Assembly: GCA_040756035.1 (NCBI GenBank)
Contig: JBFLZV010000003.1
Location: 11,970 to 75,969, forward strand
Length of the DNA stretch: 64,000 bases
Direction: 5' to 3'
Source of the DNA: Pseudomonadota bacterium
GTDB taxonomy: Bacteria; Pseudomonadota; Gammaproteobacteria; SURF-13
The notes beneath the pieces are model-generated. The model worked only from the letters and a program-made list of their open reading frames with translations. It ran no database searches and had not been told where the DNA came from. Shown here in pieces: positions 10,507 through 35,653 of the stretch (the stretch's first letter is position 1; each line of letters starts with the position of its first letter). Position numbers and translations under genes: made by a program.

Positions 10507-10977
10507 TTATTCTTCCAACAACACCACCGCGTACGCGGCGATGCCCTCCGCGCGCCCGATGAAACCCATGCCCTCGGTGGTGGTGGCCTTGATGTTGACG
10601 CGCGATGCGTCGATGCCGAGATCGGCGCTGAGATTCTTTTGCATGGCCGCGAAGTGCGCAGCGAACTTGGGCGCCTGCGCCAGAATGGTAGCGTCAACGT
10701 TGCCAACCGTCAGCTTGTTTTCGCCGAGTAGCGCCGCGATCTTGCGCAATAAAATGCGGCTGTCGATGTTGCGGTATTCGGCCTGGGAATCGGGAAAATG
10801 CCGCCCGATGTCGCCGAGGCCCGCCGCGCCCAGCAAGGCGTCGCAGACGGCATGTATCAGCACGTCGCCGTCGGAATGCGCCAACAATCCCCGCTCATAC
10901 GGAACGTGCACGCCGCCGACGATTAATTTTCGGCCCGGCGCAAAGGCGTGGGCATCGTAGCCGTGTCCTATTTTCAT
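10507..10977 (-). CDS. ispF: 2-C-methyl-D-erythritol 2,4-cyclodiphosphate synthase
   Basis: MKIGHGYDAHAF...HSDGDVLIHA...; 156 aa. Confidence 0.95.
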   Translation of the reverse strand: MKIGHGYDAHAFAPGRKLIVGGVHVPYERGLLAHSDGDVLIHAVCDALLGAAGLGDIGRHFPDSQAEYRNIDSRILLRKIAALLGENKLTVGNVDATILAQAPKFAAHFAAMQKNLSADLGIDASRVNIKATTTEGMGFIGRAEGIAAYAVVLLEE

Positions 10978-11696
10978 AGACCGCGCTCTTGTTGCATAAG
11001 ATAAAATTCCGCGAGCGGCAAATCCTCGGGATAGGTGATTTTAATATTATCGGCGCGTCCTTCCACGAGTGCGGGTTTGGCGCCGAGCAGAATCATGGCG
11101 GAGGCTTCATCGGTGATGGTTTTACCTTGCGCAATAACGCTCTCCAGCGCATCGAGCAACGGCCCGAAGCGAAACATCTGCGGTGTAAACGCGCGCCACA
11201 ATTTTTTTCTGTCCAATACCTTGAGCGCCCCGCCCTCCTCCATCCACATGGTATCGTTCACGCGTCCGGCGAGAAAACCGCCGTGCGCGTGCGCGGACAG
11301 CGTATGGATGAGCTTGTCGATATCGTCGCGGTGCAGGCACGGACGCACGGCGTCGTGCACCAAAACCCAGTCGCGCGCCTGTGCCAAGCCATTTAATTTT
11401 CCGAGCGCGTTTAACACCGAGTACGCGCGCTCCGCGCCGCCCTCGGCGATGAGCAACGGTTTTTCACCCATGCCGCGGACGAACAGTTTCCTTCCCTCGC
11501 CATCGTGCGCGGCCAGCGCCACGACCATTCCGGAAACGGACGGGTGATTATATAAACGCGCGACGCTGTGTTCTATAACGGTGCGGCCGTGCAACGGCAA
11601 ATATTGCTTGGGACGCGCGCCGCCCATGCGCACACCGGCGCCCGCGGCGGGCACCACCGCCCAGTAGCTCACGGGAGTTAAAGGATTCTGTGACAC
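10974..11696 (-). CDS. ispD: 2-C-methyl-D-erythritol 4-phosphate cytidylyltransferase
   Basis: AVVPAAGAGVRMG...KQYL motif; 4-nt overlap with ispF. Confidence 0.95.
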   Translation of the reverse strand: MSQNPLTPVSYWAVVPAAGAGVRMGGARPKQYLPLHGRTVIEHSVARLYNHPSVSGMVVALAAHDGEGRKLFVRGMGEKPLLIAEGGAERAYSVLNALGKLNGLAQARDWVLVHDAVRPCLHRDDIDKLIHTLSAHAHGGFLAGRVNDTMWMEEGGALKVLDRKKLWRAFTPQMFRFGPLLDALESVIAQGKTITDEASAMILLGAKPALVEGRADNIKITYPEDLPLAEFYLMQQERGL

Positions 11697-11801: not shown

Positions 11802-12617
11802 CTACGCTCCCGCCTGCGCCGCATCGTAGCCATGCACCCACTGCCGGCACTCGACCCTCCGAGCGCGGCCCTGCACGGCCAACGCGGCGGCATAACCGGG
11901 CAAATCAGGCAAGTCATGGAGCGTCCAGCGCTGTTCCTCGGCGGGATCATCTTGCGCGCCGATCACGCGCGGCGCCTCTCCCGGCGCCAGGGTGACGCTG
12001 AATTGATGCAAGGGAAAGCTCAGGCCCTTGCCCAGGGCTTTGATGTACGCCTCCTTGCGCACCCAGCAGGTAAAAAAAGCGCGCTGTCGTTGCGCCGGCG
12101 GCAACGCGCGCAGCGCGGCGATCTCGCGCGCGGAAAAAAATTGCGCGGCGATGTGCTCGTGTTCCGGTTGCGTCTGAACGCGCTCGAGATCGACGCCGAC
12201 TTCGCGCCCGCGCGCCAGCGCGCAGAGCACCACGCCGTGCGAGTGCGCGTAATTAAAGCGCACATCCGACGGATTGCATTGTTCGAGCAAGGCGGGCTTT
12301 CCGTATTCGTTGTAACCAAAGCGCAAGGCGGCGGGCGGCGTGTTTAAATAGCATCCCAGTAGCGTGCGCAGCAGCCCGCGCGCCGCGATGAATTGCGCGC
12401 GGTCTTTTTGAAAGTGAAAGCGCGCGGCCCTGGCTTGCTCATCCGCGCTTAAAAATTCCCGCCAACGCGAAACGTTGATATCACCTATATGCGCGCGCCA
12501 CACGTGCACCGTATCCGTTTCCAACATGAATCGTTGCGGAATGAGCCGCCGGAGCGGCTGTGTTGCCGACATTGTTCCGTTAACCCGCCAGCGATATGGG
12601 TGGACTGAAATCATCAT
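11802..12617 (-). CDS. Sfp-type 4'-phosphopantetheinyl transferase
   Basis: FNYAHSHGVVLCALARGREVGVDLE and WVRKEAYIKALGKG (PPTase motifs 2 and 3); directly downstream of the NRPS; alternative start at 12572. Confidence 0.85.
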   Translation of the reverse strand: MMISVHPYRWRVNGTMSATQPLRRLIPQRFMLETDTVHVWRAHIGDINVSRWREFLSADEQARAARFHFQKDRAQFIAARGLLRTLLGCYLNTPPAALRFGYNEYGKPALLEQCNPSDVRFNYAHSHGVVLCALARGREVGVDLERVQTQPEHEHIAAQFFSAREIAALRALPPAQRQRAFFTCWVRKEAYIKALGKGLSFPLHQFSVTLAPGEAPRVIGAQDDPAEEQRWTLHDLPDLPGYAAALAVQGRARRVECRQWVHGYDAAQAGA

Positions 12618-15600
12618 CGTGCACCGCTGCCGTTTCTTTTGCCTCTTTTTCCGCCTGCGCCCGCGCCGTACTGATGCAATCGCTTAGGTGCTTGGCCAAC
12701 GTACGCACTTGCGGTTCGCGGAAAATGGTAATGTGGTCACAGTCCAGGCTATAGCTTTCCACGCCGCGCGCAGCCAAGCGCTCCCATTCGCGCTGATAAC
12801 GCGCATGGCGGCGCCGCGTGATGCTCTGGCTCGCCCAAAACAAGGTAATGCGCCCGGGATAAGGGCCGGTCCGATACACCTTTTGCGCCCGCACGTCGGC
12901 GTCGAACACGTACTGCGTGCGCACGGCCTCCGGGATGGTCAAGCCCAGGGCGCGAAATAGTTTGTAGATTCCCCGCTTGCTGCTTAACCGCAATTTCTTG
13001 CCGACTTTTTCCGCAAGATACAATGCTTTTCCCTTGCCATCGAGCAAATTTAGATTATCCCAGTGTTCGCGCAATTTACTGCTGTGGGGCGCCGGCGCAG
13101 AATTGCCTTGCACACATGGGCTGGGGCTGTCGATCAGCGCGAGCAGCGCCACCTGCTGACCTTGCGCGTGAAGTTTGCGCGCCAGTTCAAAGGCGATCCA
13201 GGCGCCGAAGCAAGCGCCGCCTAGATAATACGGCCCTTCGGGTTGCAGCGAGCGTATCGCCTTGAGGTAATTTTCCGCCATGTCTTCCACGCGCGTTAAC
13301 GGCGTTTGTTTACCGTCCAGTCCGGGCGGCTGCAATCCGTAAAACGGCTGATCCGCGCCGAGATGGCGCGCCAGTTGGCGCATCCCGAAAAGATTTCCGC
13401 CCGCGCCGGTGATACCGAAGAAAATGGGCTGCGCGCCCGCGGGCTGAATCGCCACCAGCGGCGACCACGCCGGCGCGCAGCCCTCCTGGCGCAGCAGCAT
13501 GGCCAGCTGTTCGACGGTGGGCGCCTTGAATAGATCGGCCACCGGCAAATTTTTCCCGAAAGTTTTTTTGATGTGCGCAACCAAACGCACCGCCAGCAGC
13601 GAGTGTCCGCCGCGCTCGAAGAAATCGTCGCGCACGCCGATATTGCGCACACCCAGCACCTTTTCCCATATTCTCGTGAGCTGCAACTCCAAATCGTCGC
13701 GCGCGGCCATGTACGTGGACCGCTGCCCCGTCTCCTCCGATCCCGGCAAGGCGTGCTTATCGACCTTGCCGTTGGGGGTGAGCGGCAGGGCCGCGAGGGG
13801 CAACAGGTATTGCGGCAACATGTACGCCGGCAGTTTGCTTTGCAGGTAGGCGCGCAGCGCCTCGGTGTCGCACGCGGCGCCGGCGCGGGGTACGACGTAG
13901 GCGGCGAGGTGTTTGTCGCCGGATGGCTCGTGGCGCGCCACCACCACGCTCTCGCGCACCGCCGGATGTTGCGCGAGCACCGCTTCGATTTCGCCGAGCT
14001 CGATGCGGAAGCCGCGGATTTTGACTTGCCGGTCGCGCCGCCCGAGAAACTCGATGACGCCGTCGGGCCGGTAACGCGCCAGGTCGCCGGTTTTGTAGAG
14101 ACGCTGCCCCGGCGCGTAGGGATGCGGGATGAATTTTTCCGCGGTCAAGTCGGGCTGGTTGAGGTAGCCGCGCGCCAGGCCGTCGCCGCCGATGTACAGT
14201 TCGCCGGGCACGCCGAGGGGCACGGGGTGCAGGCACCGGTCGAGGAGGTAGACGTGGGTGTTGGCGATGGGCCGGCCAATGGGGACGCCGCCGGTTAGGG
14301 GTTGGTCGCGCGGGATGCGGTAACAGCAGGTGAAGGTGGTGTTTTCGGTGGGGCCGTAGCCGTTGATGAGCTGGCAATCGGGAAGATGCTGCAACACCTT
14401 TTGGGCGTGCGGGACGGACAAGACGTCGCCGCCGGCCAAGAGTTGACGCACGGGCTTGAGGGCGTCGAGGCGTTCGTCGACCATTAAATGGAACAGGCCG
14501 GCGGTGAGCCAGAGGATGCTGACCTGGTGCCGGCGCAGAGTTTCGCCGAGCAATTCCAGGGACGGGGTTTGATCGGGTAATAGGACTAAGCGGGCGCCGT
14601 TGAGCAGCGCACCCCAGATTTCGAACGTGGAGGCGTCGAAGGTGAGGGGGGCGGCTTGCAGGAATACGTCGGTGGGGCAAATGTGGACATAGTCGGTGTT
14701 TTTCACCAAGCGCACGACGCCGCGCTGGGGGACGAGCACGCCCTTGGGTTGGCCGGTGGAGCCGGAGGTGTAGAGGATGTAGGCGAGGCTGTCGGCGCTG
14801 GCCTGGCTTACCGGGTTGTGGTCGGGGTAGTGCTGCTGCAAGCTCGGCCAGTCGCTGTCGAGACACAGAGTCGGCACGATACTATCGGGAAGGCGCGCAC
14901 GCAGGTGCGCCTGGGTAAGCAGTAATGTAATGCCGGCGTCTTGCAGTATGAAGCGTTGCCGTTCGGCGGGATACGCGGGGTCGAGCGGGACGTAGGCGGC
15001 CCCGGCTTTGAGGATGGCGACGAGGCCGACGAGCAGGTCGAGCGAGCGTTCCAGACACAGGCCGATGCGCACTTCGGGGCCGGCGCCGTGGGCTTGCAGG
15101 TGGTGGGCGAGTGCGTTGGCGCGCTGGTTGAGTTCGGCGTAGGTGAGCTGGGCGTGTTCATGGACGAGGGCCACGTGGTCGGGGGTGGCCGCGGCTTGTT
15201 GTTCGAAGAGTTGCGCGAGCGTGGCGTCGCGCGGGTAGGGGGTGGCCGTGGCGTTCCCATCGTGCAGCAGGGCTTGGCGCTCCTCTTCGGTGAGTAAGGC
15301 CAGTTCGCTTAGGCGCTTGCCGGGGTGGGCGGAGAGGTCGTCCAACAATACACTAAAATGATCGCATAAGCGCGCGATGGTCGCCGTTTCGAACAGATCC
15401 GTGTTGTATTCGAACGTGACGGTCAATTCCGAACCCGCTTCTTCCGCCACGAATAACGTCAGATCGAACTTTGCCGTTTGATTGTTGACGTTCAACGGCG
15501 TCAGCGTCAGACCCGGAAACTGCACCGTTTGCCGGGTATTGCTTTGCAGGACGAACGCCACTTGAAACAGCGGCGTGTGACCGAGGTTGCGTCCCGGCTG

Positions 15601-16740
15601 CATCGCCTCGACCAACTCCTCGAACGGCAATTCTTGATGATCGTAAGCTTCCAGCGCCGTTTCACGCACGCGTTGCAACGCCTCGCTGAAACTCGGGTCG
15701 CCGGAAAGATCGGTGCGCAGCACCAGCGTGTTGAGAAAAAAACCGATCAGCCCCTCGACTTCGAGCGACAGGCGATTGGAAATAGGCGAGCCGACGATGA
15801 TATCGTCTTGGCTCGTATAGCGATGCAACAACACCTTGAACGCCGCGAGCACGGTCATGAACAAGGTTGCGCCATGGCGTTGACTCAACGCGGCGAGCGC
15901 CTTGCCCAGCGCGGCGGGCAGGCGCCGCGTATACACTCCGCCGCGAAAAGTCTGCATGGCGGGGCGCGGGTGATCGGCTGGCAGTTCCAACATCGACAGT
16001 TCACCGCGCAATTTATTTTTCCAGTAGGCAAGCTGCCGCTCGCGCACGCCCTCTTGCAGGCGTCGCCGCTGCCAGCACGCGAAATCGGCATACTGAATGG
16101 GCGGATCGGCGAGCGGCGCGGCGACGCCGCGCCGGTAGGCGTCGTACAGCGCCGCCATTTCGCGCTTGAGAATGTCGCGCGACCACAGGTCGAACACGAT
16201 GTGGTGCACGTTGAGCAGCAGCACGTGTTCCTGCGCGCCGGCGCGCAGCAGCGTGGCGCGCAGCAGCGGGCCGCGCGCCAGGTCGAACGGCCGGGATGCC
16301 TCCTGGGCGGCGCGGCGCTCGATTTCGGCGGCGCGTGTGTTTTCCGGCGCGTGACTCAAATCGATGACGGGCAATGTTATTTCGCGCGGTGGATGGATCA
16401 CTTGCCGCGGTTCGCCGTCCACGTTTTCAAACGTGCTGCGCAGCGTCTCGTGGCGGCGCATAACTTCGCTGAGCGCGCGTTGCAGCGCGGCGACGTCGAG
16501 CGCGCCGTGCAGTTTCCAGGCGTCGAATACGTTGTACAGGGCGCTGTCCGGGTGCCACTGCTCGAGAAACCATAAGCGTCGTTGCGCGAACGACAGCGGT
16601 GCGTCATCGCCCGCTGCGCGCGGCGTAATGCGCGGCGCCGGCGTCGCTGCGACACCCTGCTCTTCCAGTAACAAGGCAAGCAGCTCTTCTTGCGCGCTGT
16701 TCAAATCCGCCGTGCCACTCCCTTTCATCTCCGCACTCAC
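12580..16740 (-). CDS. NRPS termination module C-A-T-TE (TE with GxCxG)
   Basis: C domain (HHIVFDLWS), A domain (LTYAELN, YTSGSTGQPKGV, NGYGPTENTT, YKTGDLARY, GRRDRQVKIRGFRIELGEIE, LPNGKVD), PCP (FFERGGHSLLAVRL), TE (GITGAGGN...LGGACFGAW); likely start MKGSG/GTG ~16728-16740 after an RBS GGAGGAGAG. Confidence 0.9.
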   Translation of the reverse strand: MSAEMKGSGTADLNSAQEELLALLLEEQGVAATPAPRITPRAAGDDAPLSFAQRRLWFLEQWHPDSALYNVFDAWKLHGALDVAALQRALSEVMRRHETLRSTFENVDGEPRQVIHPPREITLPVIDLSHAPENTRAAEIERRAAQEASRPFDLARGPLLRATLLRAGAQEHVLLLNVHHIVFDLWSRDILKREMAALYDAYRRGVAAPLADPPIQYADFACWQRRRLQEGVRERQLAYWKNKLRGELSMLELPADHPRPAMQTFRGGVYTRRLPAALGKALAALSQRHGATLFMTVLAAFKVLLHRYTSQDDIIVGSPISNRLSLEVEGLIGFFLNTLVLRTDLSGDPSFSEALQRVRETALEAYDHQELPFEELVEAMQPGRNLGHTPLFQVAFVLQSNTRQTVQFPGLTLTPLNVNNQTAKFDLTLFVAEEAGSELTVTFEYNTDLFETATIARLCDHFSVLLDDLSAHPGKRLSELALLTEEERQALLHDGNATATPYPRDATLAQLFEQQAAATPDHVALVHEHAQLTYAELNQRANALAHHLQAHGAGPEVRIGLCLERSLDLLVGLVAILKAGAAYVPLDPAYPAERQRFILQDAGITLLLTQAHLRARLPDSIVPTLCLDSDWPSLQQHYPDHNPVSQASADSLAYILYTSGSTGQPKGVLVPQRGVVRLVKNTDYVHICPTDVFLQAAPLTFDASTFEIWGALLNGARLVLLPDQTPSLELLGETLRRHQVSILWLTAGLFHLMVDERLDALKPVRQLLAGGDVLSVPHAQKVLQHLPDCQLINGYGPTENTTFTCCYRIPRDQPLTGGVPIGRPIANTHVYLLDRCLHPVPLGVPGELYIGGDGLARGYLNQPDLTAEKFIPHPYAPGQRLYKTGDLARYRPDGVIEFLGRRDRQVKIRGFRIELGEIEAVLAQHPAVRESVVVARHEPSGDKHLAAYVVPRAGAACDTEALRAYLQSKLPAYMLPQYLLPLAALPLTPNGKVDKHALPGSEETGQRSTYMAARDDLELQLTRIWEKVLGVRNIGVRDDFFERGGHSLLAVRLVAHIKKTFGKNLPVADLFKAPTVEQLAMLLRQEGCAPAWSPLVAIQPAGAQPIFFGITGAGGNLFGMRQLARHLGADQPFYGLQPPGLDGKQTPLTRVEDMAENYLKAIRSLQPEGPYYLGGACFGAWIAFELARKLHAQGQQVALLALIDSPSPCVQGNSAPAPHSSKLREHWDNLNLLDGKGKALYLAEKVGKKLRLSSKRGIYKLFRALGLTIPEAVRTQYVFDADVRAQKVYRTGPYPGRITLFWASQSITRRRHARYQREWERLAARGVESYSLDCDHITIFREPQVRTLAKHLSDCISTARAQAEKEAKETAAVHDDDFSPPISLAG
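14738..15340. repeat. 603-bp direct repeat copy 1 (C-A linker to core A3 of the A domain), 602/603 identical to 18187-18789
   Basis: Base-by-base comparison of the two stretches; identical 150-aa and 118-aa ORFs in the track (14808..15260 = 18257..18709; 14941..15297 = 18390..18746). Confidence 0.95.
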
Positions 16741-16742
16741 GA

Positions 16743-19700
16743 CTACTCTCCTCCAGCCCGTTTGATCGCCCGCCGCTGCGCCAACTGGGCGCGCACCGCT
16801 TCCGGGCTGAGTTGAGCGACCTCGGTATACAAGCGCGCGCGTGCCTCGAGGCGGGCTGGGTCGGAGACCGTCGCGGTGAGCCGCGCGCATAAGGCGCTCA
16901 CGGAGGGAGCCTCAAACAGGGTGCGCACCGGCACGCTCACCCCCAACGCCTCACGCAGCCGCGCCAACACCTGGATGGCCAGCAACGAGTGTCCGCCGAG
17001 CGCGAAGAAGCCGCTGTGGCGGTCGATTTGCCCGCGGCCTAATACTTGCGCATAGAGCATGGCGATGACCTGTTCGATAGGACCCTCGGGGGCCGCGCCG
17101 GGGACGGGCATAACGCTAGCCTCTACAGGCGGGGCCGGTAAGGCGTTGCGGTCGAGTTTGCCGTGACGGGTAAGCGGGAGCTGGGGCAGGCTGACATAAG
17201 CGCTTGGCAGCAAGTACTCGGGCAGGCGCGCGCTAAGGTGAGCGCGCAGGCTCGCCTCGTCCGGCTTGTCGCCGTCGCGCGCGACGATATAAGCCACCAG
17301 ACGCGCGTCGGCTGCTCCCGGACTCTTGCCCTGCGCGATAATCGTGCGTTCCCGCACATCGCCGGGCGCGTCTTCGCGTACGCTGACGGCGGCGGCTTGC
17401 ACGCCCGGGTGGGTCTGAAGGAGAGCCTCGATCTCGCCCAGTTCGATACGGTAGCCTCTGAGTTTGACTTGGCCGTCCAGGCGCCCGAGATATTCCAGCA
17501 TCCCGTCGGAGCGGCGGCGTACGCGGTCGCCGGTTTGGTAAAGCCGTGCCCCCGGCTGGTAGGGGTCAATCACAAAACGCTGGATGGTGAGATCGGGGCG
17601 ATTGAGATAGCCACGTCCGACCCCCGTCCCGCCGATATAGAGTTCGCCCGCCACGCCCACGGGCACGGGCTGGCGCTCTGCGTCAAAAATGCGTAGGCCG
17701 ACATGCGGGAGGGCGTGGCCGAGGTGTGGGGTGCTGCCGGGGGTGAGGCGCGCGAAGGTAGCGTCCACGGTGCATTCGGTGGGACCATAGAGGTTATAGG
17801 CGGCCCAGTCGGGACAGGCGGCAATCGCCTCCCATAGACCGGACACGAGGGCCTCGCCGCCGATGAGCAGGCAGATTGGGCGGTAGGTGTCCGGGGCGAG
17901 CAGGCCGGCCTGGGTGAGCAAGGTAAGCTGGGTCGGCGTGGTATCGAGGACGTCGATGCGCGCCGTGGCAAGGTACTCCAGCAGGGCCGCGCCGTCCGGG
18001 CGGCAGGCCTCGGGCACCAGGCACAGGGTGTGACCGCTCAGCAGTTGCAGCCATTGTTTGACGGAAGTGTCGAAATAGATCGGACCGTTGAGGCTCACGC
18101 GCAGAGGTCGCGCGGGCGCGAGGTCGTGATAGACGGTATCGGCCAGGGCCTGGTGCAAATGAACCAGAGCGCCGTGTTCGATCATGACGCCCTTGGGTTG
18201 GCCGGTGGAGCCGGAGGTGTAGAGGATGTAGGCGAGGCTGTCGGCGCTGGCCTGGCTTACCGGGTTGTGGTCGGGGTAGTGCTGCTGCAAGCTCGGCCAG
18301 TCGCTGTCGAGACACAGAGTCGGCACGATACTATCGGGAAGGCGCGCACGCAGGTGCGCCTGGGTAAGCAGTAATGTAATGCCGGCGTCTTGCAGTATGA
18401 AGCGTTGCCGTTCGGCGGGATACGCGGGGTCGAGCGGGACGTAGGCGGCCCCGGCTTTGAGGATGGCGACGAGGCCGACGAGCAGGTCGAGCGAGCGTTC
18501 CAGACACAGGCCGATGCGCACTTCGGGGCCGGCGCCGTGGGCTTGCAGGTGGTGGGCGAGTGCGTTGGCGCGCTGGTTGAGTTCGGCGTAGGTGAGCTGG
18601 GCGTGTTCATGGACGAGGGCCACGTGGTCGGGGGTGGCCGCGGCTTGTTGTTCGAAGAGTTGCGCGAGCGTGGCGTCGCGCGGGTAGGGGGTGGCCGTGG
18701 CGTTCCCATCGTGCAGCAGGGCTTGGCGCTCCTCTTCGGTGAGTAAGGCCAGTTCGCTTAGGCGTTTGCCGGGGTGGGCGGAGAGGTCGGCGAGCAGCGT
18801 CTGGTAGTGCCGCGCCCAGCGTTCGATGGTCGCGGCGTCGAATAGGTCGGTGTTGTAATCCCATTGTACGCGGAACTCGCTGCCCGTCTCGACGATGTTC
18901 ACCTTGAGATCGAAGTTAATATTCTTTTTCGGATTACTGCGAGCTTCCACGTGCAAGTCGTGGAACATTAGATGATCCTGTGCATAATCCACGTTGAACG
19001 TCACCGTGGTAAGCGGCGTTCTGCCGGGATCGCGCGTGACGTTGAGTTTCTCCAGTAAACTCCCGTACGTGTAGTGTTGATACTCATGAATATCCAGAAC
19101 GGCGGCCTTTATCTCTTTTAGAAAGTCGGCTGCTTTTTTCTCGCCCATCACGGGTCGCCGCAGCGGTAGAAAATTCACGCAGTGGCCGACCAGACTGTCG
19201 CCGCTTACCGGAATTTGCCCGGCGGCGGGAATGCCGACCACGATGTCTTCCTGCCCGCTCATGCGATGCAGGAAAACCTCAAACGCCGCCAGCAACATGC
19301 AGAATAACGTGCAACTATGCCGCATCGCCGCGCGCTTTATATCTTGATAAAGTGGTTGCCCGATACTGAAAACATAGCGCGCGCCGTTATAAGTGAGCAC
19401 GGGAGGACGCGGGCGGTCAGTGGGCAACTCCAGCGCCGCAACCGGTTCGGAAAACTGTTGCACCCAGTAAGTCTCGGCGGCGACGCGCTCCGGGCTTTGC
19501 GCCTGCTCTGCTTGCAGGCGTGCGTACTCGCTGAATTGCATGGGCGGCGCCAGCGCCGCGTCCGTGCCCGTGCACGCCGCCGCGTAAAGCGCGCCGAGAT
19601 CGCGCAGCAGCACGCCCACCGACCAGCCGTCGCACACGATATGATGCGCGGTAATGAGCAAAAAGTGATGCAAATCTTCCAGCTTCACCAAGTGGAAGCG

Positions 19701-22700
19701 CAACAGCGGGCCGGTGGTGAGATCGAATGCGCGCCGCACATCGTGCTCCACCAGTGCGCTCATTTTCTCGGCACGCTGCTCCGCATTCAAATTAGAGAAG
19801 CCTAGAATCGGCACCTCGGCGGTCATCGTCGGCAGAATTTCCTGATAATCGCCCTGCGCGCTGAATACGGTGCGCAACGCCTCGTGGCGCGCGACCAAAT
19901 TTTGCACGGCCTCGCGCAGCGCGGCGTTGTTCAACGGGCCGCGCAGATGCAGCATCAGGGAATCGTTGTAACAACACGATGCCTCCTCGCCCAGCTGCGC
20001 GGCGATCCAAAGTTCCTTCTGAGGTCCGGTCAACGGCAAGCGCACCGGCTCGCGCGCCTCGGCGCTTCGCGCGATCTCGCGCCGCACCGGCTGCGGCGAG
20101 TCGGCCTCCTGCTCCGCGGGCTCGGGGAAAAATCCGCCCGCCTGCATTTCCGCAATGCTTTCCTTGAAGGCGCGGATGATTCGATCGATGTCCTCGTCGC
20201 TGTGCGCGGTGGAAAGAAAGCACGGGCGGCCTTCCCAAATGTGGATACCCTTGTCGCGTAAATGATAAAAAAGCAGGCCGGCGAATTTTTGCTCGCCCTC
20301 GAAGTGCACATAGAACATGGAGCTGAAATGTGTGATGCGCACGGGTGCTTGATGTGCACGGAAATAATCGTTGAGCACCGCGGCCAAAGCCGCCGTTTTG
20401 CGATTCAACTGCTCCTGCAAACCGGGCCCGCTGCGTTTCAAGTGTTCGAGCACCGCGCGCGCCGCGGTCAAAGCGAGAGGATGGCGCACGAAGGTGCCGG
20501 CAAAGAACGTCACGCCGACCTCCGGAAACGAGTTGTCTCCGTAATTCCACGCGCCGCCGTCGAAGGCGTCCAGATAACGCGCCCGCCCCGCCAACGCGCC
20601 GATGGGCATGCCGCCGCCGATCACCTTGCCGTAGGTGGCGAGGTCGGCGCGCACGTCGAACAGCGCCTGCGCGCCGCCGGGATGCGCGCGGAAACCGGTG
20701 ATGACTTCATCGAAGATGAGCGCCGTGTCCGAGGCCGCGGTCAGGCGCCGCACCTCTTGCAGAAATTCCCTGGGTTGCAAATCGGGATGCCGGCTCTGCA
20801 CGGGTTCGACCAGCACGGCGGCGAGTTGCGGGCCGTGCTTTTTCAGCAACGCGAGCGACGCGGGCGCACCGTACTCCAAAACCAGCACGTCCTGCACCAT
20901 GTGTTCCGGTATGCCGGGCGCTATCGGCAGCGGGCGCGAATGTCCGCCGCGCGTGGACGCGCGCACCAGCACTTCGTCGAAAATGCCGTGATAAGAGCCG
21001 GCGAACAACGCGATTTTGTCGCGCCCGCTGACGGTGCGCGCCGCACGCAGCGCCGCCATCACCGCCTCGGAACCGGTGTTGCAAAAAATCGCGCGCTCCA
21101 TGCCGGTGAACGCGCACAGCGCTTCCGCGACTTTGCCGGCCAGCGGCGAAGTCGGCCCGATTTCCATGCCCGACTCGAGCTGATCCTGCAACGCCTCGGT
21201 GACGAAAGGCGGCGCATGGCCGAATAGATTGACGCCGAAGCCCATGGTCAAGTCGATATACTCATTGCCGTCCACGTCCCAAATTTTGGAGCCGGACGAA
21301 CGCGCGGCGACGATCGGATAAACCATTTCCTTCCATTGCAAACGAAATCCAGAAACCGCGCGCGGGTCGCAAAAATGCGCGCGGTGCGCCTTGGTGTAGC
21401 GCTTGGACTCCGCGGTGCGCCGCGTATAGCGCCCGATCAACGCCCCCAAGTGTTTTTGCTGACGCGCGTTGAGGCCGCCGCCGATTCCTTTTTCAATGGG
21501 CTTGTAAGGGCCAAAGGGCTTACTCTCCGCGCGCGCTTCCCGCACCGTGTGCCGCGCCATGCTCGCCGGCGCGCCCACGTCGGGCGCCGCAGCCTCGGCG
21601 TTTCCGGCCTTGCCCCAGAGTGCGGCGCTGCGGCGCAACTCCTCCAATTGTTTTTCAATGAGCGCCAATTGCCGCGCCACGGCGTCGGCCTGCGGTTGCG
21701 CGGGAGCGGTTTTCTCCGAGGCGGAATCGGATACTTCATCCTCGCGCAACGCCTCGGTCGGCAAGGAACGATCCAGGTAGCCCGCCAGCGCTTCCAGCGT
21801 GGCGGATTCCTCCAGCAGTTGGCGGAACGGAACTTTCACGTTGAATTTTTTTTGCAGCGCGTGGCTGATCTGCGTGAGAAACAGAGAATCAAAGCCCATT
21901 TCCAAAAACGTCGTGGTGGCGCCGATGGCGGTTATGTCCAACCCCGACAATTCGCTCAAAGCCTCTTGCAGCATCGGCAGCAGCTTTTCCCGCCGGCTGA
22001 ACGACTTTTTTACACTCGTTTCAATCATTTGTTCCTCAAGCATGACGCCCTCCTCGCACTCTTCTCCCTTAATGATTTTTTGTGCAACTCTATTTTTTGC
22101 GCGCGGCGGTTCCACCCAGTAATGTTTCCGCTCGAACGCGTAACCGGGCAATGGCACGCGCCGCCGCCGCTCATGCGCGTGAAATTGCGTCCAATTAACC
22201 GTCGCGCCGGTCAACCACAACCGGCCCACGGCATCCAGCAAACAAGCGATGTCCGACCGATTATCCTGTGCGGCGCGTGCCGAGGTGATAACGGATTGCT
22301 CGGCGCGCTTGGCGGGATGCTGGCGCGCCAGCGTGCTCAGTGTTTGTCCGGGGCCGACTTCCAAAAGAACGTGTTCGGTTTTGTTCAGCAGCGTTTGCAA
22401 GCCGGCGGCGAAACGCACGGTGTGGCGCATGTGCCGCACCCAGTACTGCGGATCGGTCGCCTGCGCGGCGTCGATCCACGTTCCGGTGACGTTGGAGACG
22501 TAGGGAATCTGCGGGGGATGCAGGGCAACTTTGCGCAGTTGTTCGAGAAACGGCGCGAGGATCGGCTCCACCATCATGGAGTGGAAGGCGTGCGAGGTGT
22601 GCAGGCGCCGGTGCACGATTTCTTCCTTGGTGAGCCGCTCTTCCAGCGCCTCGATCGCGGCGTTCGGACCGGACACGACGCACAGCGCGGACCCGTTCAC

Positions 22701-24740
22701 CGCCGCCAGGCACAGTTCGCCGCCCAGCAACGGCTGCACCGTCTCTTCGTTCACACGCACGGCGAGCATGGCGCCGCCGGGCAAACTTTGGACGAGCCGC
22801 GCCCGCTCCGCCAGCAAGTTGAGCGCGTCGTGCAGCGTAAGCACGCCCGCCAGGCAAGCCGCCGTGTATTCGCCGAGGCTGTGTCCGATCATGGCCTGCG
22901 GCCGCACGCCCCACGCCATCCATAGTTTGGCGAGCGCGTATTCCACCGTGAACAGCGCCGGCTGCGTGATCCAGGTTTGTCCTAGCAGCTTCCGCGCCTG
23001 TTCCGTTTGCTCGGCGGATGGATACAATACGCTGCGCAGGTCGAGGCCCAGCAACGGTTGTAATAATTCCGCGCAGGCGTTGACGTGTTCCTGGAACACC
23101 GGCTCGCTCTCGTACAGCTCGCGGCACATATCGACGTGCTGCGCGCCCTGTCCAGGAAACATGAAGACCACCGGCGCCTGATCGTGCACGGCGACGTGCG
23201 TGGCCATGCGCGCGGCGTCATCCGCGCGCAAGATTCGTAGCGCGTCCGCCGCGTCTTGGCACACCAACATGCGCCGATGCGCATAGTGCTTGCGTCCGGC
23301 GTGTAACGTAAACGCGGCGTCGGCAAGATTAACTTCGGGTTGGCGCTCCAAATGTTCGGCCAGGGCGTCGGTCGTCGCATTCAGCGCGGCGGCGGTTTTC
23401 GCGGACAAGGTCAACACTTGCCAGGGCCGCGTCGCCTGCGCCGCGGCCGGCGCGGGCGCCTCTTCCAGCACTACGTGCACATTGGTGCCGCCGATGCCGA
23501 ACGAACTCACGCCGGCGCGGCGCGGCAATTTATCCGTGCGCCACTCGCGCAGTTCGGAGTTGACGTAGAACGGACTGTTGGCGAAATCGATTTTCGGATT
23601 AGGCTGCTCGAAGTGCAGGCTGGGCGGCAACATTTTGTGATGCAGCATCAAGGCGGTTTTAACCAATCCGGCGACGCCCGCCGCGATGTCCAAATGCCCG
23701 ATGTTGGTTTTCACCGAGCCGATGGCGCAAAAGTTTTTCTCCTGCGTCGCAACACGGAAGGCCTGTGTGAGACCGGCGATTTCTATGGGATCACCGAGCG
23801 GCGTGCCGGTGCCGTGCGCCTCCACGTAGGTGACGGTGTCGGGCTCGACGCCGGCCACGGCCTGCGCCATCGTGATCACCCGCGCCTGGCCGTCGATGCT
23901 CGGCGCTGTGTAGCCGGCCTTGAGCGCACCGTCATTGTTGACGGCGCCGCCCTTGATGACGGCCCAGATATGATCGCCGTCGGCCATGGCGTCGTCCAAT
24001 CTCTTCAGCACCACCGCCGCGGCGCCCTGCCCGCCCACCATGCCCTGCGCCTTGGCGTCGAACGCGCGGCAGTGACCATCGCCGGAATAGATGCCGCCTT
24101 CCTGGTACAAGTGGCCGCGCTTTTGCGGAAACGATATGGAGACGCCGCCGGCCAACGCCATGTCGCACTGGTAATCGAGCAGACTTTGGCAAGCGCTGTA
24201 CACCGCCACCAGCGACGTGGAGCACGCGGTCTGCACCGTCATGCTCGGACCTTGCAAATTCAACTTATAGGAAACGCGCGTGGCGAGAAAATCCTTGTCG
24301 TTGGCGATGATGGGCGCCAATCCGGTCAGGCTCCGGAATTTCGGATGCGGATACAGATTATGCAGCAAGTAGCTGTTCGTGCCGGCGCCCGCGTACACGC
24401 CTATCAATCCGGGGTAAGTATCCGGATCGTAACCGGCATTCTCCAAGGCATGCCAGCAGCATTCCAAAAATACGCGCTGCTGCGGATCGATGATCTCCGC
24501 TTCCCGGGGTTGATAGCCGAAGAACGCCGCGTCGAATGCGATGGCGTCGTCCAGCACGGCGCGCGCGCGCACGTAGTTCGGATCATGAATGAGCGCGTCA
24601 TCCACGCCGGATTCTTCCAGCTCCTGCGCAGTAAAAAATCTTACAGATTCCTTGCCGCCTTGCAGGTTGCGCCAGAATTCCTCAATATCGTTCGCGCCGG
24701 GAAATCGTCCGGCCATGCCGATAATGGCTATCCCTTCCAT
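16743..24740 (-). CDS. hybrid PKS-NRPS: KS-AT-ACP-aminotransferase(AMT)-C-A-T
   Basis: KS (TACSTSLVA, EAHGTGT, HLDIAAG-type), AT (GHSLGEY, HAFH = malonyl-specific), ACP (LEMGFDSLF), class-III aminotransferase domain (GSEAVMAALRAAR, KVIGGGMP; the PLP Lys lies in the latter), C (HHIVCDGWS), A, PCP (FFALGGHSLLAI). Confidence 0.9.
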   Translation of the reverse strand: MEGIAIIGMAGRFPGANDIEEFWRNLQGGKESVRFFTAQELEESGVDDALIHDPNYVRARAVLDDAIAFDAAFFGYQPREAEIIDPQQRVFLECCWHALENAGYDPDTYPGLIGVYAGAGTNSYLLHNLYPHPKFRSLTGLAPIIANDKDFLATRVSYKLNLQGPSMTVQTACSTSLVAVYSACQSLLDYQCDMALAGGVSISFPQKRGHLYQEGGIYSGDGHCRAFDAKAQGMVGGQGAAAVVLKRLDDAMADGDHIWAVIKGGAVNNDGALKAGYTAPSIDGQARVITMAQAVAGVEPDTVTYVEAHGTGTPLGDPIEIAGLTQAFRVATQEKNFCAIGSVKTNIGHLDIAAGVAGLVKTALMLHHKMLPPSLHFEQPNPKIDFANSPFYVNSELREWRTDKLPRRAGVSSFGIGGTNVHVVLEEAPAPAAAQATRPWQVLTLSAKTAAALNATTDALAEHLERQPEVNLADAAFTLHAGRKHYAHRRMLVCQDAADALRILRADDAARMATHVAVHDQAPVVFMFPGQGAQHVDMCRELYESEPVFQEHVNACAELLQPLLGLDLRSVLYPSAEQTEQARKLLGQTWITQPALFTVEYALAKLWMAWGVRPQAMIGHSLGEYTAACLAGVLTLHDALNLLAERARLVQSLPGGAMLAVRVNEETVQPLLGGELCLAAVNGSALCVVSGPNAAIEALEERLTKEEIVHRRLHTSHAFHSMMVEPILAPFLEQLRKVALHPPQIPYVSNVTGTWIDAAQATDPQYWVRHMRHTVRFAAGLQTLLNKTEHVLLEVGPGQTLSTLARQHPAKRAEQSVITSARAAQDNRSDIACLLDAVGRLWLTGATVNWTQFHAHERRRRVPLPGYAFERKHYWVEPPRAKNRVAQKIIKGEECEEGVMLEEQMIETSVKKSFSRREKLLPMLQEALSELSGLDITAIGATTTFLEMGFDSLFLTQISHALQKKFNVKVPFRQLLEESATLEALAGYLDRSLPTEALREDEVSDSASEKTAPAQPQADAVARQLALIEKQLEELRRSAALWGKAGNAEAAAPDVGAPASMARHTVREARAESKPFGPYKPIEKGIGGGLNARQQKHLGALIGRYTRRTAESKRYTKAHRAHFCDPRAVSGFRLQWKEMVYPIVAARSSGSKIWDVDGNEYIDLTMGFGVNLFGHAPPFVTEALQDQLESGMEIGPTSPLAGKVAEALCAFTGMERAIFCNTGSEAVMAALRAARTVSGRDKIALFAGSYHGIFDEVLVRASTRGGHSRPLPIAPGIPEHMVQDVLVLEYGAPASLALLKKHGPQLAAVLVEPVQSRHPDLQPREFLQEVRRLTAASDTALIFDEVITGFRAHPGGAQALFDVRADLATYGKVIGGGMPIGALAGRARYLDAFDGGAWNYGDNSFPEVGVTFFAGTFVRHPLALTAARAVLEHLKRSGPGLQEQLNRKTAALAAVLNDYFRAHQAPVRITHFSSMFYVHFEGEQKFAGLLFYHLRDKGIHIWEGRPCFLSTAHSDEDIDRIIRAFKESIAEMQAGGFFPEPAEQEADSPQPVRREIARSAEAREPVRLPLTGPQKELWIAAQLGEEASCCYNDSLMLHLRGPLNNAALREAVQNLVARHEALRTVFSAQGDYQEILPTMTAEVPILGFSNLNAEQRAEKMSALVEHDVRRAFDLTTGPLLRFHLVKLEDLHHFLLITAHHIVCDGWSVGVLLRDLGALYAAACTGTDAALAPPMQFSEYARLQAEQAQSPERVAAETYWVQQFSEPVAALELPTDRPRPPVLTYNGARYVFSIGQPLYQDIKRAAMRHSCTLFCMLLAAFEVFLHRMSGQEDIVVGIPAAGQIPVSGDSLVGHCVNFLPLRRPVMGEKKAADFLKEIKAAVLDIHEYQHYTYGSLLEKLNVTRDPGRTPLTTVTFNVDYAQDHLMFHDLHVEARSNPKKNINFDLKVNIVETGSEFRVQWDYNTDLFDAATIERWARHYQTLLADLSAHPGKRLSELALLTEEERQALLHDGNATATPYPRDATLAQLFEQQAAATPDHVALVHEHAQLTYAELNQRANALAHHLQAHGAGPEVRIGLCLERSLDLLVGLVAILKAGAAYVPLDPAYPAERQRFILQDAGITLLLTQAHLRARLPDSIVPTLCLDSDWPSLQQHYPDHNPVSQASADSLAYILYTSGSTGQPKGVMIEHGALVHLHQALADTVYHDLAPARPLRVSLNGPIYFDTSVKQWLQLLSGHTLCLVPEACRPDGAALLEYLATARIDVLDTTPTQLTLLTQAGLLAPDTYRPICLLIGGEALVSGLWEAIAACPDWAAYNLYGPTECTVDATFARLTPGSTPHLGHALPHVGLRIFDAERQPVPVGVAGELYIGGTGVGRGYLNRPDLTIQRFVIDPYQPGARLYQTGDRVRRRSDGMLEYLGRLDGQVKLRGYRIELGEIEALLQTHPGVQAAAVSVREDAPGDVRERTIIAQGKSPGAADARLVAYIVARDGDKPDEASLRAHLSARLPEYLLPSAYVSLPQLPLTRHGKLDRNALPAPPVEASVMPVPGAAPEGPIEQVIAMLYAQVLGRGQIDRHSGFFALGGHSLLAIQVLARLREALGVSVPVRTLFEAPSVSALCARLTATVSDPARLEARARLYTEVAQLSPEAVRAQLAQRRAIKRAGGE
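18187..18789. repeat. 603-bp direct repeat copy 2 (inside the A domain of the hybrid gene)
   Basis: See copy 1; single mismatch near the 3' end. Confidence 0.95.

Positions 24741-24774: not shown

Positions 24775-30192
<5,418 letters not shown>

Positions 30193-34079: not shown

Positions 34080-35653
<1,574 letters not shown>

What the first reader, a model, noticed from the sequence alone, without database searches (positions are those of the whole stretch)
14738..18789. 603-bp near-identical direct repeat shared by two A domains, with a third diverged copy
The positions 14738-15340 (A domain of the C-A-T-TE gene) and 18187-18789 (second A domain of the hybrid gene) are identical except for one base (15316 C vs T). 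Both cover the C-A linker through core A3 (SGSTGQPKGV). Identity stops abruptly immediately after A3, before the specificity-conferring region. A third copy in the FkbH-NRPS A domain (~26150-26760) is ~90% similar. This is a signature of recent intragenic gene conversion or subdomain recombination that homogenises A-domain N-terminal subdomains while specificity pockets diverge. The repeats are also an instability hotspot, since a recombination would delete about 3.4 kb in frame and fuse modules.
Basis: seen in the sequence. Interest (0 to 1): 0.6.

Follow-up and report, generated by a model that had tools for sequence, protein, structure and literature searches.

The report
Gene-conversion tract shared by two NRPS modules
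Two neighbouring peptide-synthetase genes carry the same 603-base stretch because one copy was recently pasted over the other, which is a well-known way these enzyme genes evolve, so the finding is real but ordinary.

Summary
Window 14738-15340 and 18187-18789 are identical except at 15316. Both copies lie on the minus strand in the same codon phase, and both run from the end of the C domain and the C-A linker through core motif A3. Two details are wrong: the hybrid gene has only one A domain, and the third copy (26153-26755) is 79.8% identical, not ~90%.

The repeat is not an assembly invention. A second MAG carries it, and short-read contigs from six independent sequencing runs stop 30 nt (k-1) past the point where sequence becomes shared: four runs at the copy A/copy B edges, the others at runs shared with copy C. 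Interior identity cannot be phased and may be slightly overstated.

The best explanation is ongoing gene conversion (concerted evolution) between paralogous modules. The tract is bounded by two published NRPS recombination hotspots, the C/A junction and A2-A4. Strains differ at 15316 in copy A only. The two MAGs differ at two tract sites, and the change is the same in both copies.

In 258 unrelated multimodular NRPSs, 27 module pairs in 6 proteins show the same pattern, with a break 0-10 residues after A3. The tract also meets the formal GRINS definition.

Verdict: a new member of a known kind, of low to moderate interest.

The parts
14738..15340 (-). Copy A of the 603-nt tract, in g1 (C-A-T-TE). 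ORF codons 517-718, or aa 463-664 of the annotated 1382-aa protein. Covers the end of the C domain, the C-A linker and A1-A3.
   Evidence: The edges are confirmed by Logan contigs ending at 14764 and at 15286/15311.
18187..18789 (-). Copy B of the tract, in g2 (KS-AT-T-AmT-C-A-T), codons 1984-2185. Same codon phase and the same 201 residues as copy A.
   Evidence: Logan contigs from four or more runs start at 18216, which is 18186+30.
26153..26755 (-). Copy C in g3 (FkbH-T-C-A-T). It is 79.8% identical overall and patchy (69-95% per 75 nt). Perfect runs lie at 26465-26550 (86 nt), 26392-26433 (42 nt) and 26149-26189 (41 nt). Similarity ends at the same A3 boundary.
   Evidence: The 86-nt run exceeded all 20,000 shuffles, whose maximum was 58. 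Logan contigs L083 and L084 end at 26521, 30 nt into the 86-nt run.
15316..15316 (.). The only A/B difference (A has C, B has T at 18765). It is synonymous and lies 24 nt from the tract edge. It is polymorphic between strains: copy A carries T in run ERR2851114.
14880..14917 (.). Two sites that differ between the two MAGs, and the change is the same in both copies (paired with 18329 and 18366). The window has T and A. The other MAG and copy C have C and G. Site 14880 is Ile/Val and 14917 is synonymous.
   Evidence: Only one other difference (33885) was found in 59 kb compared.
12580..16728 (-). g1: C-A-T-TE NRPS. The annotated protein is 1382 aa (MEW6352920.1). The longer ORF reaches 16890.
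16743..24740 (-). g2: hybrid KS-AT-T-aminotransferase-C-A-T, 2665 aa, with a single A domain.
24775..30192 (-). g3: FkbH-T-C-A-T, 1805 aa.
   Evidence: FkbH domain TIGR01686 scores 284 bits against a cut-off of 146.65.
13864..15342 (-). Island in g1 where C dominates third codon positions (C3 302 vs G3 109, skew -0.47). It starts exactly at the tract's upstream edge and ends at the end of the A domain.
16989..18917 (-). Matching C3-rich island in g2 (skew -0.38). It starts 42 codons upstream of the tract and ends at the T-domain core motif GGHS.
25375..26601 (-). Weaker C3-rich island in g3 (skew -0.34), from A1 to A8.

Best explanation
The tract is a product of recent, and probably still ongoing, non-reciprocal homologous recombination (gene conversion) between paralogous C-A-T modules of one hybrid PKS-NRPS gene cluster.

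**What is shown.**
- Two otherwise diverged modules share 603 nt that are identical even at synonymous sites.
- The tract's edges sit at the C/A junction and just after core A3.
- A third module shares shorter perfect patches and the same A3 edge.
- Strains differ in the copy-specific states inside the tract.

**What is inferred.**
- Strand exchange starts in the block that the modules already share. It stops where homology ends, at the diverged C domain upstream and the diverged specificity-determining core downstream. The same block is therefore repeatedly re-homogenised (concerted evolution), while the substrate pockets stay different.
- The tract carries no specificity residue, so conversion is close to neutral for the product. 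It keeps one common C-A linker and A1-A3 scaffold under three different pockets, predicted as Val-like, Glu-like and Thr.
- Parsimony weakly favours g2 as donor and g1 as recipient. The g2-g3 similarity (84%) runs uninterrupted for ~25 codons beyond the tract's upstream edge, whereas g1 is at background there.
- As a by-product, the two direct copies could recombine to delete 3449 bp. That would fuse g2 and g1 in frame into a 2903-aa enzyme lacking one module.
For: - **Identity pattern.** Identity is 602/603 with abrupt edges. On the codon alignment, M1-M2 third-position identity is 1.00 in the tract against ~0.4 in both flanks.
- **Third module.** Copy C has perfect runs of 86, 42 and 41 nt inside 79.8% overall identity. 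The 86-nt run exceeded all 20,000 shuffles. All three pairs lose similarity at the same point after A3.
- **Independent assemblies.** A second MAG (GCA_049322975.1, 632-kb contig) has the same two copies, the same edges and the same 15316 phase.
- **Short-read contigs.** Logan k=31 contigs from runs SRR32167793, ERR2851114, ERR2841089, ERR2851113, ERR2841088 and SRR28401805 end at 18216, 15286/15311, 14764 and 26521. Each of these is a copy-specific base plus or minus 30 nt.
- **Strain polymorphism of copy-specific states.** In ERR2851114, copy A carries the copy B allele at 15316 and the contig ends 25 nt earlier, as expected if the copies are identical there.
- **Paired changes.** The two MAGs differ at only 5 positions in 59 kb. 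Four of them are the same two tract sites changed in both copies.
- **Generality.** Among 1,749 intra-protein module pairs from 258 NRPSs, 52 are >=95% identical in the 180 aa before A3. Of these, 27 are <50% identical after it, with the break 0-10 aa past A3. The reverse pattern occurs once. At DNA level the pre-A3 540 nt are 97-100% identical among 4-5 modules in three unrelated loci, one from a closed genome, CP152001.1.
- **Literature.**
  - Recombination hotspots lie between the C and A domains and between A2 and A4 (PMC7486941).
  - Acore swaps keep the C-A linker (PMC8097286).
  - Concerted evolution is documented in NRPS clusters (PMC4256081).
Against: - **No close relative.** No orthologous cluster from a more distant relative was found. 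The best hit was 62% aa in GTDB representatives, and g1's next-best hit was 53%. A phylogenetic test of paralogues against orthologues was therefore not possible.
- **Paired changes are ambiguous.** The paired differences at 14880 and 14917 lie 143-180 nt from the nearest unique base. A short-read assembler that threads one collapsed repeat node twice would produce the same picture from two copies that really differ there.
- **Unknown methods.** The sequencing and assembly methods of both MAGs are unknown to me.
- **Weak direction call.** The direction of transfer rests on parsimony alone.
- **Skew beyond the repeat.** The C3-rich composition also covers the non-repeated A cores. Part of the shared sequence could therefore have arrived already identical (see the rivals).
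Confidence: 0.8

Rival explanations
1. Assembly artefact. The two segments are only similar in the real genome, and a collapsed or mis-polished repeat made them look identical.
For: - Both sources are MAGs.
- The only A/B difference (15316) lies 24 nt from an edge, where short reads can phase it.
- The two MAGs disagree only at interior tract sites, and both copies change together. That is what bubble-popping in a collapsed repeat would give.
Against: - Two independent MAGs share the same edges.
- k=31 contigs from six runs stop exactly 30 nt past the last copy-specific base at all four A/B edges and at the run shared with copy C. At least the outer parts of the repeat are therefore identical in raw-read graphs.
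- Polishing cannot turn flanks of ~50% identity into a sharp 603-nt block.
- With one discordant bubble between two assemblies, at most a few hidden differences are expected, so identity would still be about 99% or more.
- The same pattern exists in a closed genome elsewhere.
Confidence: 0.04
2. Inherited identity. Each A domain was imported separately from a foreign NRPS whose modules already shared an identical pre-A3 block, so no conversion happened in this genome.
For: - The tract and the adjacent non-repeated A cores share an atypical codon usage (CTC/GCC/CCC/ACC rather than CTG/GCG/CCG/ACG). Their third-position GC skew is -0.36 to -0.50, against 0 to +0.16 in the rest of the cluster and a mean of -0.09 in 26 host genes.
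- The g1 island starts exactly at the tract edge.
- Candidate donors with fully homogenised pre-A3 blocks are common.
Against: - It needs two recent imports that are still 99.8% identical.
- It does not explain copy-specific states changing between very close strains (15316, and the paired sites).
- It does not explain the short perfect patches shared with copy C.
- No donor-like sequence above 60% aa identity was found. Both of those searches were poorly suited to finding one.
- This rival is compatible with the best explanation as an account of where the block first came from.
Confidence: 0.12
3. A recent duplication of a whole C-A-T module, followed by replacement or rapid divergence of everything except the 603 nt.
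For: Module duplication is a common origin of NRPS repeats (PMC4256081). M1 and M3 do look like old sister modules, with similarity also in C-domain parts and in A8-A10.
Against: Both flanks of the M1-M2 tract are at background identity, including synonymous sites. At least two further replacement events would have to end exactly at the tract edges. One conversion event is far simpler.
Confidence: 0.03

Closest known systems
Recombination hotspots and Acore subdomain swaps in NRPS adenylation domains (Calcott et al. 2020, PMC7486941; Baunach et al. 2021, PMC8097286; Booth et al. 2022, PMC9205934)
   Same: [quoted passage not shown] The C-A linker stays with the conserved block. The pocket-bearing core differs between modules. 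The exchange is intragenomic.
   Different: The published cases describe the swapped core as the exchanged unit. Here the exchanged or homogenised unit is the complementary piece, from the linker to A3. The P-loop (A3) stays with the N-terminal block rather than travelling with the pocket, as Booth et al. suggested is favoured.
[quoted passage not shown] 2021, PMC8256042)
   Same: The tract is >500 bp and >80% identical to another region of the same cluster. Mean |GC skew| is 0.278 and mean |TA skew| is 0.177 in 150/30-nt windows, with correlation r=0.79. The skew is strongest at third codon positions. The encoded peptide is enriched in Pro/Thr/His/Gln (25%), as described for negatively skewed GRINS.
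   Different: - It lies in NRPS modules of a Pseudomonadota genome, where the paper reports GRINS to be rare.
- The TA skew passes only narrowly, at the 83rd percentile of the window.
- The GC skew continues into the non-duplicated A cores, so skew and repetition are not co-extensive here.
Concerted evolution of NRPS/PKS modules (Medema et al. 2014, PMC4256081) and mcyB1/mcyC adenylation-domain recombination in microcystin synthetase (Fewer et al. 2007, PMC2174460)
   Same: Paralogous modules within one cluster are kept alike by internal recombination. The conversion occurs between A domains of neighbouring genes of the same cluster.
   Different: In the mcy case the conversion changes the specificity region and the product. 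Here the tract stops short of every specificity residue, so no change in product is expected.

Membership tests
Gene-conversion tract between paralogues (concerted evolution) | A segment near-identical at synonymous sites, flanked on both sides by diverged homologous sequence | tested here: met
   Third-position identity is 1.00 in the tract and ~0.4 in both flanks. Identity is 602/603 nt.
Gene-conversion tract between paralogues (concerted evolution) | The repeat is real in the genome and not produced by assembly | tested here: met
   A second MAG has the same copies and edges. k=31 contigs from six runs end 30 nt past the last copy-specific base. Interior identity is not phaseable.
Gene-conversion tract between paralogues (concerted evolution) | Paralogues within a genome are more alike than orthologues between genomes, with substitutions shared by both copies within a lineage | tested here: inconclusive
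   The two MAGs differ at 14880 and 14917 in both copies, as expected. The same result would arise from a collapsed repeat. No more distant orthologous cluster was found.
Gene-conversion tract between paralogues (concerted evolution) | Copy-specific states gained or lost between close strains | tested here: met
   Site 15316 in copy A is C in the window, in the 632-kb MAG and in SRR32167793. It is T (the copy B state) in ERR2851114, where the contig ends at 15311 instead of 15286. This site is phaseable at k=31.
Gene-conversion tract between paralogues (concerted evolution) | Known donor and recipient | tested here: inconclusive
   Parsimony favours g2 to g1, because g2-g3 similarity of 0.84 continues ~25 codons beyond the tract edge. 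No outgroup is available.
GRINS (Nivina et al. 2021) | Duplicated region longer than 500 bp | tested here: met
   603 bp.
GRINS (Nivina et al. 2021) | More than 80% DNA identity to another region of the same cluster | tested here: met
   99.8%.
GRINS (Nivina et al. 2021) | Mean absolute GC skew above 0.15 (150-nt windows, step 30) | tested here: met
   0.278 and 0.277 for the two copies, in the top 0.4% of 603-nt regions of the window.
GRINS (Nivina et al. 2021) | Mean absolute TA skew above 0.15 | tested here: met
   0.177 and 0.178, a narrow pass at the 83rd percentile of the window.
GRINS (Nivina et al. 2021) | GC and TA skews are correlated and most marked at third codon positions | tested here: met
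   r is 0.79 and 0.76. GC skew by codon position is -0.05, -0.31 and -0.49.
GRINS (Nivina et al. 2021) | Skew is confined to the repeated regions as opposed to the non-repeated parts of the cluster | tested here: not met
   The non-duplicated A cores of g1 and g2 have third-position skews of -0.48 and -0.36. This is a described property of GRINS, not part of the formal definition.
Natural Acore subdomain swap (Baunach et al. 2021) | A divergent stretch inside Acore lies between conserved flanks, and the native C-A linker and Asub are retained | tested here: met
   For M1 vs M3, nt identity is 0.69-0.95 from linker to A3 and 0.76-0.89 in A8-A10, but 0.43-0.56 (aa 0.22-0.43) in between. For M1 vs M2 only the N-terminal flank is shared.
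Natural Acore subdomain swap (Baunach et al. 2021) | [quoted passage not shown] | not testable with these tools
   Codes read by hand from the alignment (DAFWLGGTFK, DTKDLGLVDK, DFWNIGMVHK) predict different substrates. The product is unknown.

The most novel reading that the evidence does not exclude
The tract would be a working GRINS-type element in a proteobacterial NRPS, caught in the act. Closely related strains, differing by about 1 in 10,000 bases or less elsewhere, have exchanged or co-changed copy-specific bases inside the tract. The tract also forms the leading edge of synonymous-site compositional islands (C-ending codons) that outline whole A-domain exchange units. Those units have three different right-hand ends: the end of Asub in g1, the T-core GGHS in g2, and A8 in g3. 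If so, strand-skewed recoding and conversion are linked in NRPS as they are in Streptomyces PKS, and public read sets of this population could give a direct estimate of conversion rate.
Probability: 0.35. Interest if true: 0.5.

Novelty: new member of a known kind. Interest (0 to 1): 0.3.

Why it matters
**For annotation.** The two A domains must not be assumed to have the same substrate because their first 200 residues match. Short-read assemblies of this cluster will break at the tract or thread it ambiguously.

**For NRPS evolution and engineering.** This is one more natural example showing that the interval from the C/A junction to A3 can be exchanged between modules with very different C domains and pockets. 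It supports fusion points that have already been published.

**As a natural experiment.** The same organism occurs in at least nine public runs with slightly different strains. It offers a cheap case for measuring conversion frequency, tract length and deletion variants from existing reads.

None of this changes current understanding.

Tried and rejected
- **GTDB representative genomes, using the aminotransferase region of g2.** There is no orthologous cluster. The best hit is 62% aa and the rest are unrelated class-III aminotransferases, so no comparative test was possible.
- **Homologue search with the 200-aa tract.** Only proteins up to ~1.75x the query length were returned, and g1 and g2 themselves were missing. 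It says nothing about copies inside large NRPSs.
- **Representative-library search.** The ranking is dominated by summed scores of many-module proteins, and top identities are 37-54%. It gave no evidence for or against a near-identical copy elsewhere. I reused the hits as a survey set.
- **Two exact-pattern scans of JGI metagenome contigs with interior tract sequence.** Nothing was found.
- **Look-ups of the window's own MAG proteins P0391 and P0392.** They are not on record, so the assembly name and method of the window's source remain unknown.
- **Interior phasing.** The collapsed repeat contig in Logan cannot be looked up, because its gene fragment has no stop codon. The interior sites 14880 and 14917 therefore could not be phased.
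- **Skew caused by amino-acid composition.** Rejected, because the skew is strongest at third positions and reflects synonymous codon choice.
- **Skew as a general property of A domains.** Rejected, because the g4 A domain has none (-0.03).
- **Test for a link between homogenised blocks and skew in three other NRPS loci.** The result was mixed. The link is present in L093 and L094, and weak in L092.
- **One script mis-anchored a contig and printed noise.** It was redone.

Full report
**Observation**

A repeat search, a three-way alignment and a base-by-base comparison in register agree. Window 14738-15340 and 18187-18789 (offset 3449) are identical over 603 nt, except for 15316 (C) against 18765 (T). 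Identity drops to 25-40% in register immediately outside both ends. Even at a generous 60% background identity, the chance of this is about 1e-131.

**Gene context**

All relevant genes are on the minus strand:

| Gene | Window coordinates | Domains |
|---|---|---|
| g4 | 30650-33757 | A-MT-T |
| g3 | 24775-30192 | FkbH-T-C-A-T (FkbH domain TIGR01686, 284 bits) |
| g2 | 16743-24740 | KS-AT-T-aminotransferase-C-A-T |
| g1 | 12580-16728 | C-A-T-TE |
| PPTase | 11802-12527 | phosphopantetheinyl transferase |

g2 has one A domain, not two. Both tract copies sit in the same codon phase (g1 codons 517-718, g2 codons 1984-2185). They encode the same 201 residues, from DLSAHPGKRLSELALLTEEER to SGSTGQPKGV. 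That is the last ~25 residues of the C-domain envelope, the C-A linker, and A1 through A3.

**Mosaic structure**

I built a codon alignment of the three C-A-T modules.

- **M1 vs M2.** Identity is 1.00 in the tract, including third positions. In both flanks it is ~0.5 overall and ~0.4 at third positions.
- **Copy C (26153-26755).** It is 79.8% identical, not ~90%. Identity is patchy, from 0.69 to 0.95 per 25 codons. Perfect runs of 86, 42 and 41 nt are present, and the 86-nt run exceeded all 20,000 shuffles.
- **Shared downstream edge.** All three pairs lose similarity at the same point, just after A3.
- **M2 vs M3.** Similarity of 0.84 extends ~25 codons upstream of the tract.
- **M1 vs M3.** These modules are also alike in parts of the C domain and in A8-A10 (0.76-0.89).
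- **A3-to-A8 cores.** These share only 20-40% aa identity.

Stachelhaus codes read by hand from the alignment are DAFWLGGTFK for M1, DTKDLGLVDK for M2 and DFWNIGMVHK for M3. From my knowledge of published codes, these look Val-like, Glu-like and Thr. This is an inference and was not run through a predictor.

**Is the repeat real?**

The window comes from a MAG. Its proteins are MEW6352920.1 and MEW6352921.1, on an 84-kb contig.

A second MAG (GCA_049322975.1, 632-kb contig) could be compared over window 2580-61589. It has both copies, the same edges and the same phase at 15316.

Logan short-read assemblies (k=31) of independent runs behave exactly as a true repeat predicts:

| Contigs | Runs | Where they end, in window coordinates |
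|---|---|---|
| Inter-repeat segment (L088-L091) | SRR32167793, ERR2851114, ERR2841089, ERR2851113 | All start at 18216 (18186+30). The two full-length ones end at 15286 (15316-30) or 15311 (15341-30) |
| g1 3' part (L095, L096) | ERR2841089, ERR2841088 | 14764 |
| g4-g3 (L083, L084) | ERR2841089, SRR28401805 | 26521, which is 30 nt into the 86-nt run shared with copy C |

I predicted two of these end points before looking them up.

The existence and edges of the repeat are therefore not assembly products. What cannot be checked is the interior, because sites more than ~130 nt from both edges cannot be phased by short reads.

**Evidence of ongoing exchange**

- **Site 15316.** In ERR2851114, a strain with three other SNPs in 2.9 kb, copy A carries T at 15316. 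That is the copy B allele, and the contig ends 25 nt earlier, as expected if the copies are identical there.
- **Paired sites.** The two MAGs differ at only five positions in 59 kb. One is 33885. The other four are 14880/14917 in copy A and the matching 18329/18366 in copy B. The window has T and A in both copies. The other MAG has C and G in both, which is also the copy C state. The first site changes Ile to Val and the second is synonymous.
- **Two readings of the paired sites.** Either two linked changes spread to both copies after the strains split, which is concerted evolution observed directly. Or the copies differ there within a strain, and each assembler threaded one collapsed allele through both positions. 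I cannot separate these readings. In the worse case the true identity is still about 99.5%.

**How general is the pattern?**

I used the multimodular NRPSs returned as a survey set. It has 258 proteins with two or more usable modules, 993 modules in total and 1,749 intra-protein pairs.

- 52 pairs are >=95% identical in the 180 residues before A3.
- Of these, 27 pairs, in six proteins, are <50% identical in the 180 residues after it, with similarity ending 0-10 residues past A3.
- The reverse pattern occurs once.
- Upstream edges cluster 164-205 residues before A3, or run on through the C and T domains. Measured the same way, this window gives 195 and 0.

DNA fetched for three of these proteins shows the pre-A3 540 nt at 97-100% identity among four or five modules, with unrelated sequence after A3. 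One of the three is from a closed 6.7-Mb genome.

The survey set was chosen by similarity to the tract summed over modules, so these frequencies are inflated. The recurrence of the pattern is the result, not its rate.

**Literature**

- Calcott et al. found breakpoint hotspots between the C and A domains, between A2 and A4, and after A5 (PMC7486941). The tract spans exactly the interval between the first two.
- Baunach et al. describe Acore swaps that keep the C-A linker, and they suggest the conserved core motifs act as recombination points (PMC8097286).
- Booth et al. report intragenomic A-domain recombination (PMC9205934).
- Medema et al. describe cycles of divergence and internal recombination in NRPS and PKS modules (PMC4256081).

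**Nucleotide skews**

The tract meets the formal GRINS definition of Nivina et al. (PMC8256042):

| Criterion | Value here |
|---|---|
| Length >500 bp | 603 bp |
| Identity >80% | 99.8% |
| Mean abs. GC skew >0.15 | 0.278 |
| Mean abs. TA skew >0.15 | 0.177 |
| Skews correlated | r = 0.79 |

The GC skew is in the top 0.4% of the window. On the coding strand it is -0.05, -0.31 and -0.49 at codon positions 1, 2 and 3. It reflects synonymous choice: CTC, GCC, CCC, ACC and GTC in the tract, against CTG, GCG, CCG, ACG and GTG in the rest of the cluster.

That paper reports some GRINS in NRPS modules and says they are rare in Proteobacteria.

The skew is not confined to the repeat. Maximal C3-over-G3 segments are listed below.

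| Gene | Codons | Left end | Right end |
|---|---|---|---|
| g1 | 517-1009 | exactly at the tract edge | end of the A domain |
| g2 | 1942-2584 | 42 codons upstream of the tract | T-core motif GGHS |
| g3 | 1226-1634 | A1 | A8 |

Their third-position skews are -0.47, -0.38 and -0.34. Twenty-six host genes have a mean of -0.09 and a range of -0.32 to +0.23. The A domain of g4 has no skew.

These islands look like A-domain-sized exchange units with a composition of their own. Whether that reflects foreign origin or GRINS-type recoding is open.

**Mechanism and consequences**

The most likely account is RecA-type conversion. It starts within a block the modules already share and ends where homology ends. 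The block from linker to A3 is therefore re-homogenised repeatedly, while the pocket-bearing cores stay distinct. This account is an inference.

No specificity residue lies in the tract, so no change in product is expected.

Direction is weakly inferred as g2 to g1. Two events suffice under that direction, and three are needed for the opposite.

A crossover between the two direct copies would remove 3449 bp. It would leave one in-frame 2903-aa ORF, g2[1-2185]+g1[719-1436], lacking the A-core and T of module 2 and the C domain of g1. No such variant was seen, and minor variants cannot be excluded.

**Verdict**

What it describes is a clean example of a documented process in NRPS evolution. The added value lies in three points:

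- read-graph confirmation of the repeat in independent samples;
- the strain-level changes inside the tract;
- the formal GRINS match together with the A-domain compositional islands.

These are of modest interest and worth a note, not a new kind of system.

Noticed in passing
window 11802-33757: The ~22-kb cluster (g4, g3, g2, g1 and a PPTase) sits between ftsB/DivIC (34080-34352) and ispD-ispF (10507-11696). From my knowledge, these genes are normally adjacent in Gammaproteobacteria, in the order eno-ftsB-ispDF-surE-pcm-nlpD. The cluster therefore looks like an insertion into a conserved housekeeping block.
   Followed up: partly
window 13864-15342, 16989-18917, 25375-26601: Third-codon-position C-over-G islands coincide with the A domains of the three C-A-T modules. 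They have different right-hand ends: the end of Asub, the T-core motif GGHS, and A8. The rest of the cluster, the g4 A domain and the host genes lack this bias.
   Followed up: partly
window 13915-14291 vs 25303-25685; also 15636-15786 vs the g3 C domain: g1 and g3 share further similar stretches (76-89% nt) in A8-A10 and in part of the C domain. g2 is at background there. The three modules are therefore a patchwork of several exchanges, not one.
   Followed up: partly
window 14734, 15985, 16188, 16293, 31763, 32039, 33885, 33968, 50141: These are strain-level SNPs between the window, the second MAG and the Logan contigs. The organism occurs in at least nine public runs (ERR2841088, ERR2841089, ERR2851113, ERR2851114, SRR28401805, SRR32167793, SRR12901032 and others). 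Polymorphic sites seem denser in and next to the tract (14734, 14880, 14917, 15316) than in the flanking unique sequence.
   Followed up: partly
L092 (ERZ25067474 contig_4), L093 (JGI 3300063414), L094 (CP152001.1): Three unrelated five-module NRPS genes have the 540 nt before A3 at 97-100% identity in four or five modules, with unrelated sequence after A3. In L093 and L094 the homogenised parts also have stronger third-position GC skew than the divergent cores.
   Followed up: partly
window 16743-24740 and 24775-30192: The g2 architecture KS-AT-T-aminotransferase-C-A-T should install a beta-amino group on a polyketide extension, as in iturin-type synthetases (my knowledge). It is combined with an FkbH glyceryl-loading module and an A-MT-T starter. 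No characterised close relative was found, and the product is unknown.
   Followed up: no
window 62551-63153: This is a second region of the window with strong skews of the opposite sign (mean |GC| 0.246, |TA| 0.233). It lies at the 3' end of glnD, where ORFs on the other strand overlap, and it is not repeated within the window.
   Followed up: no
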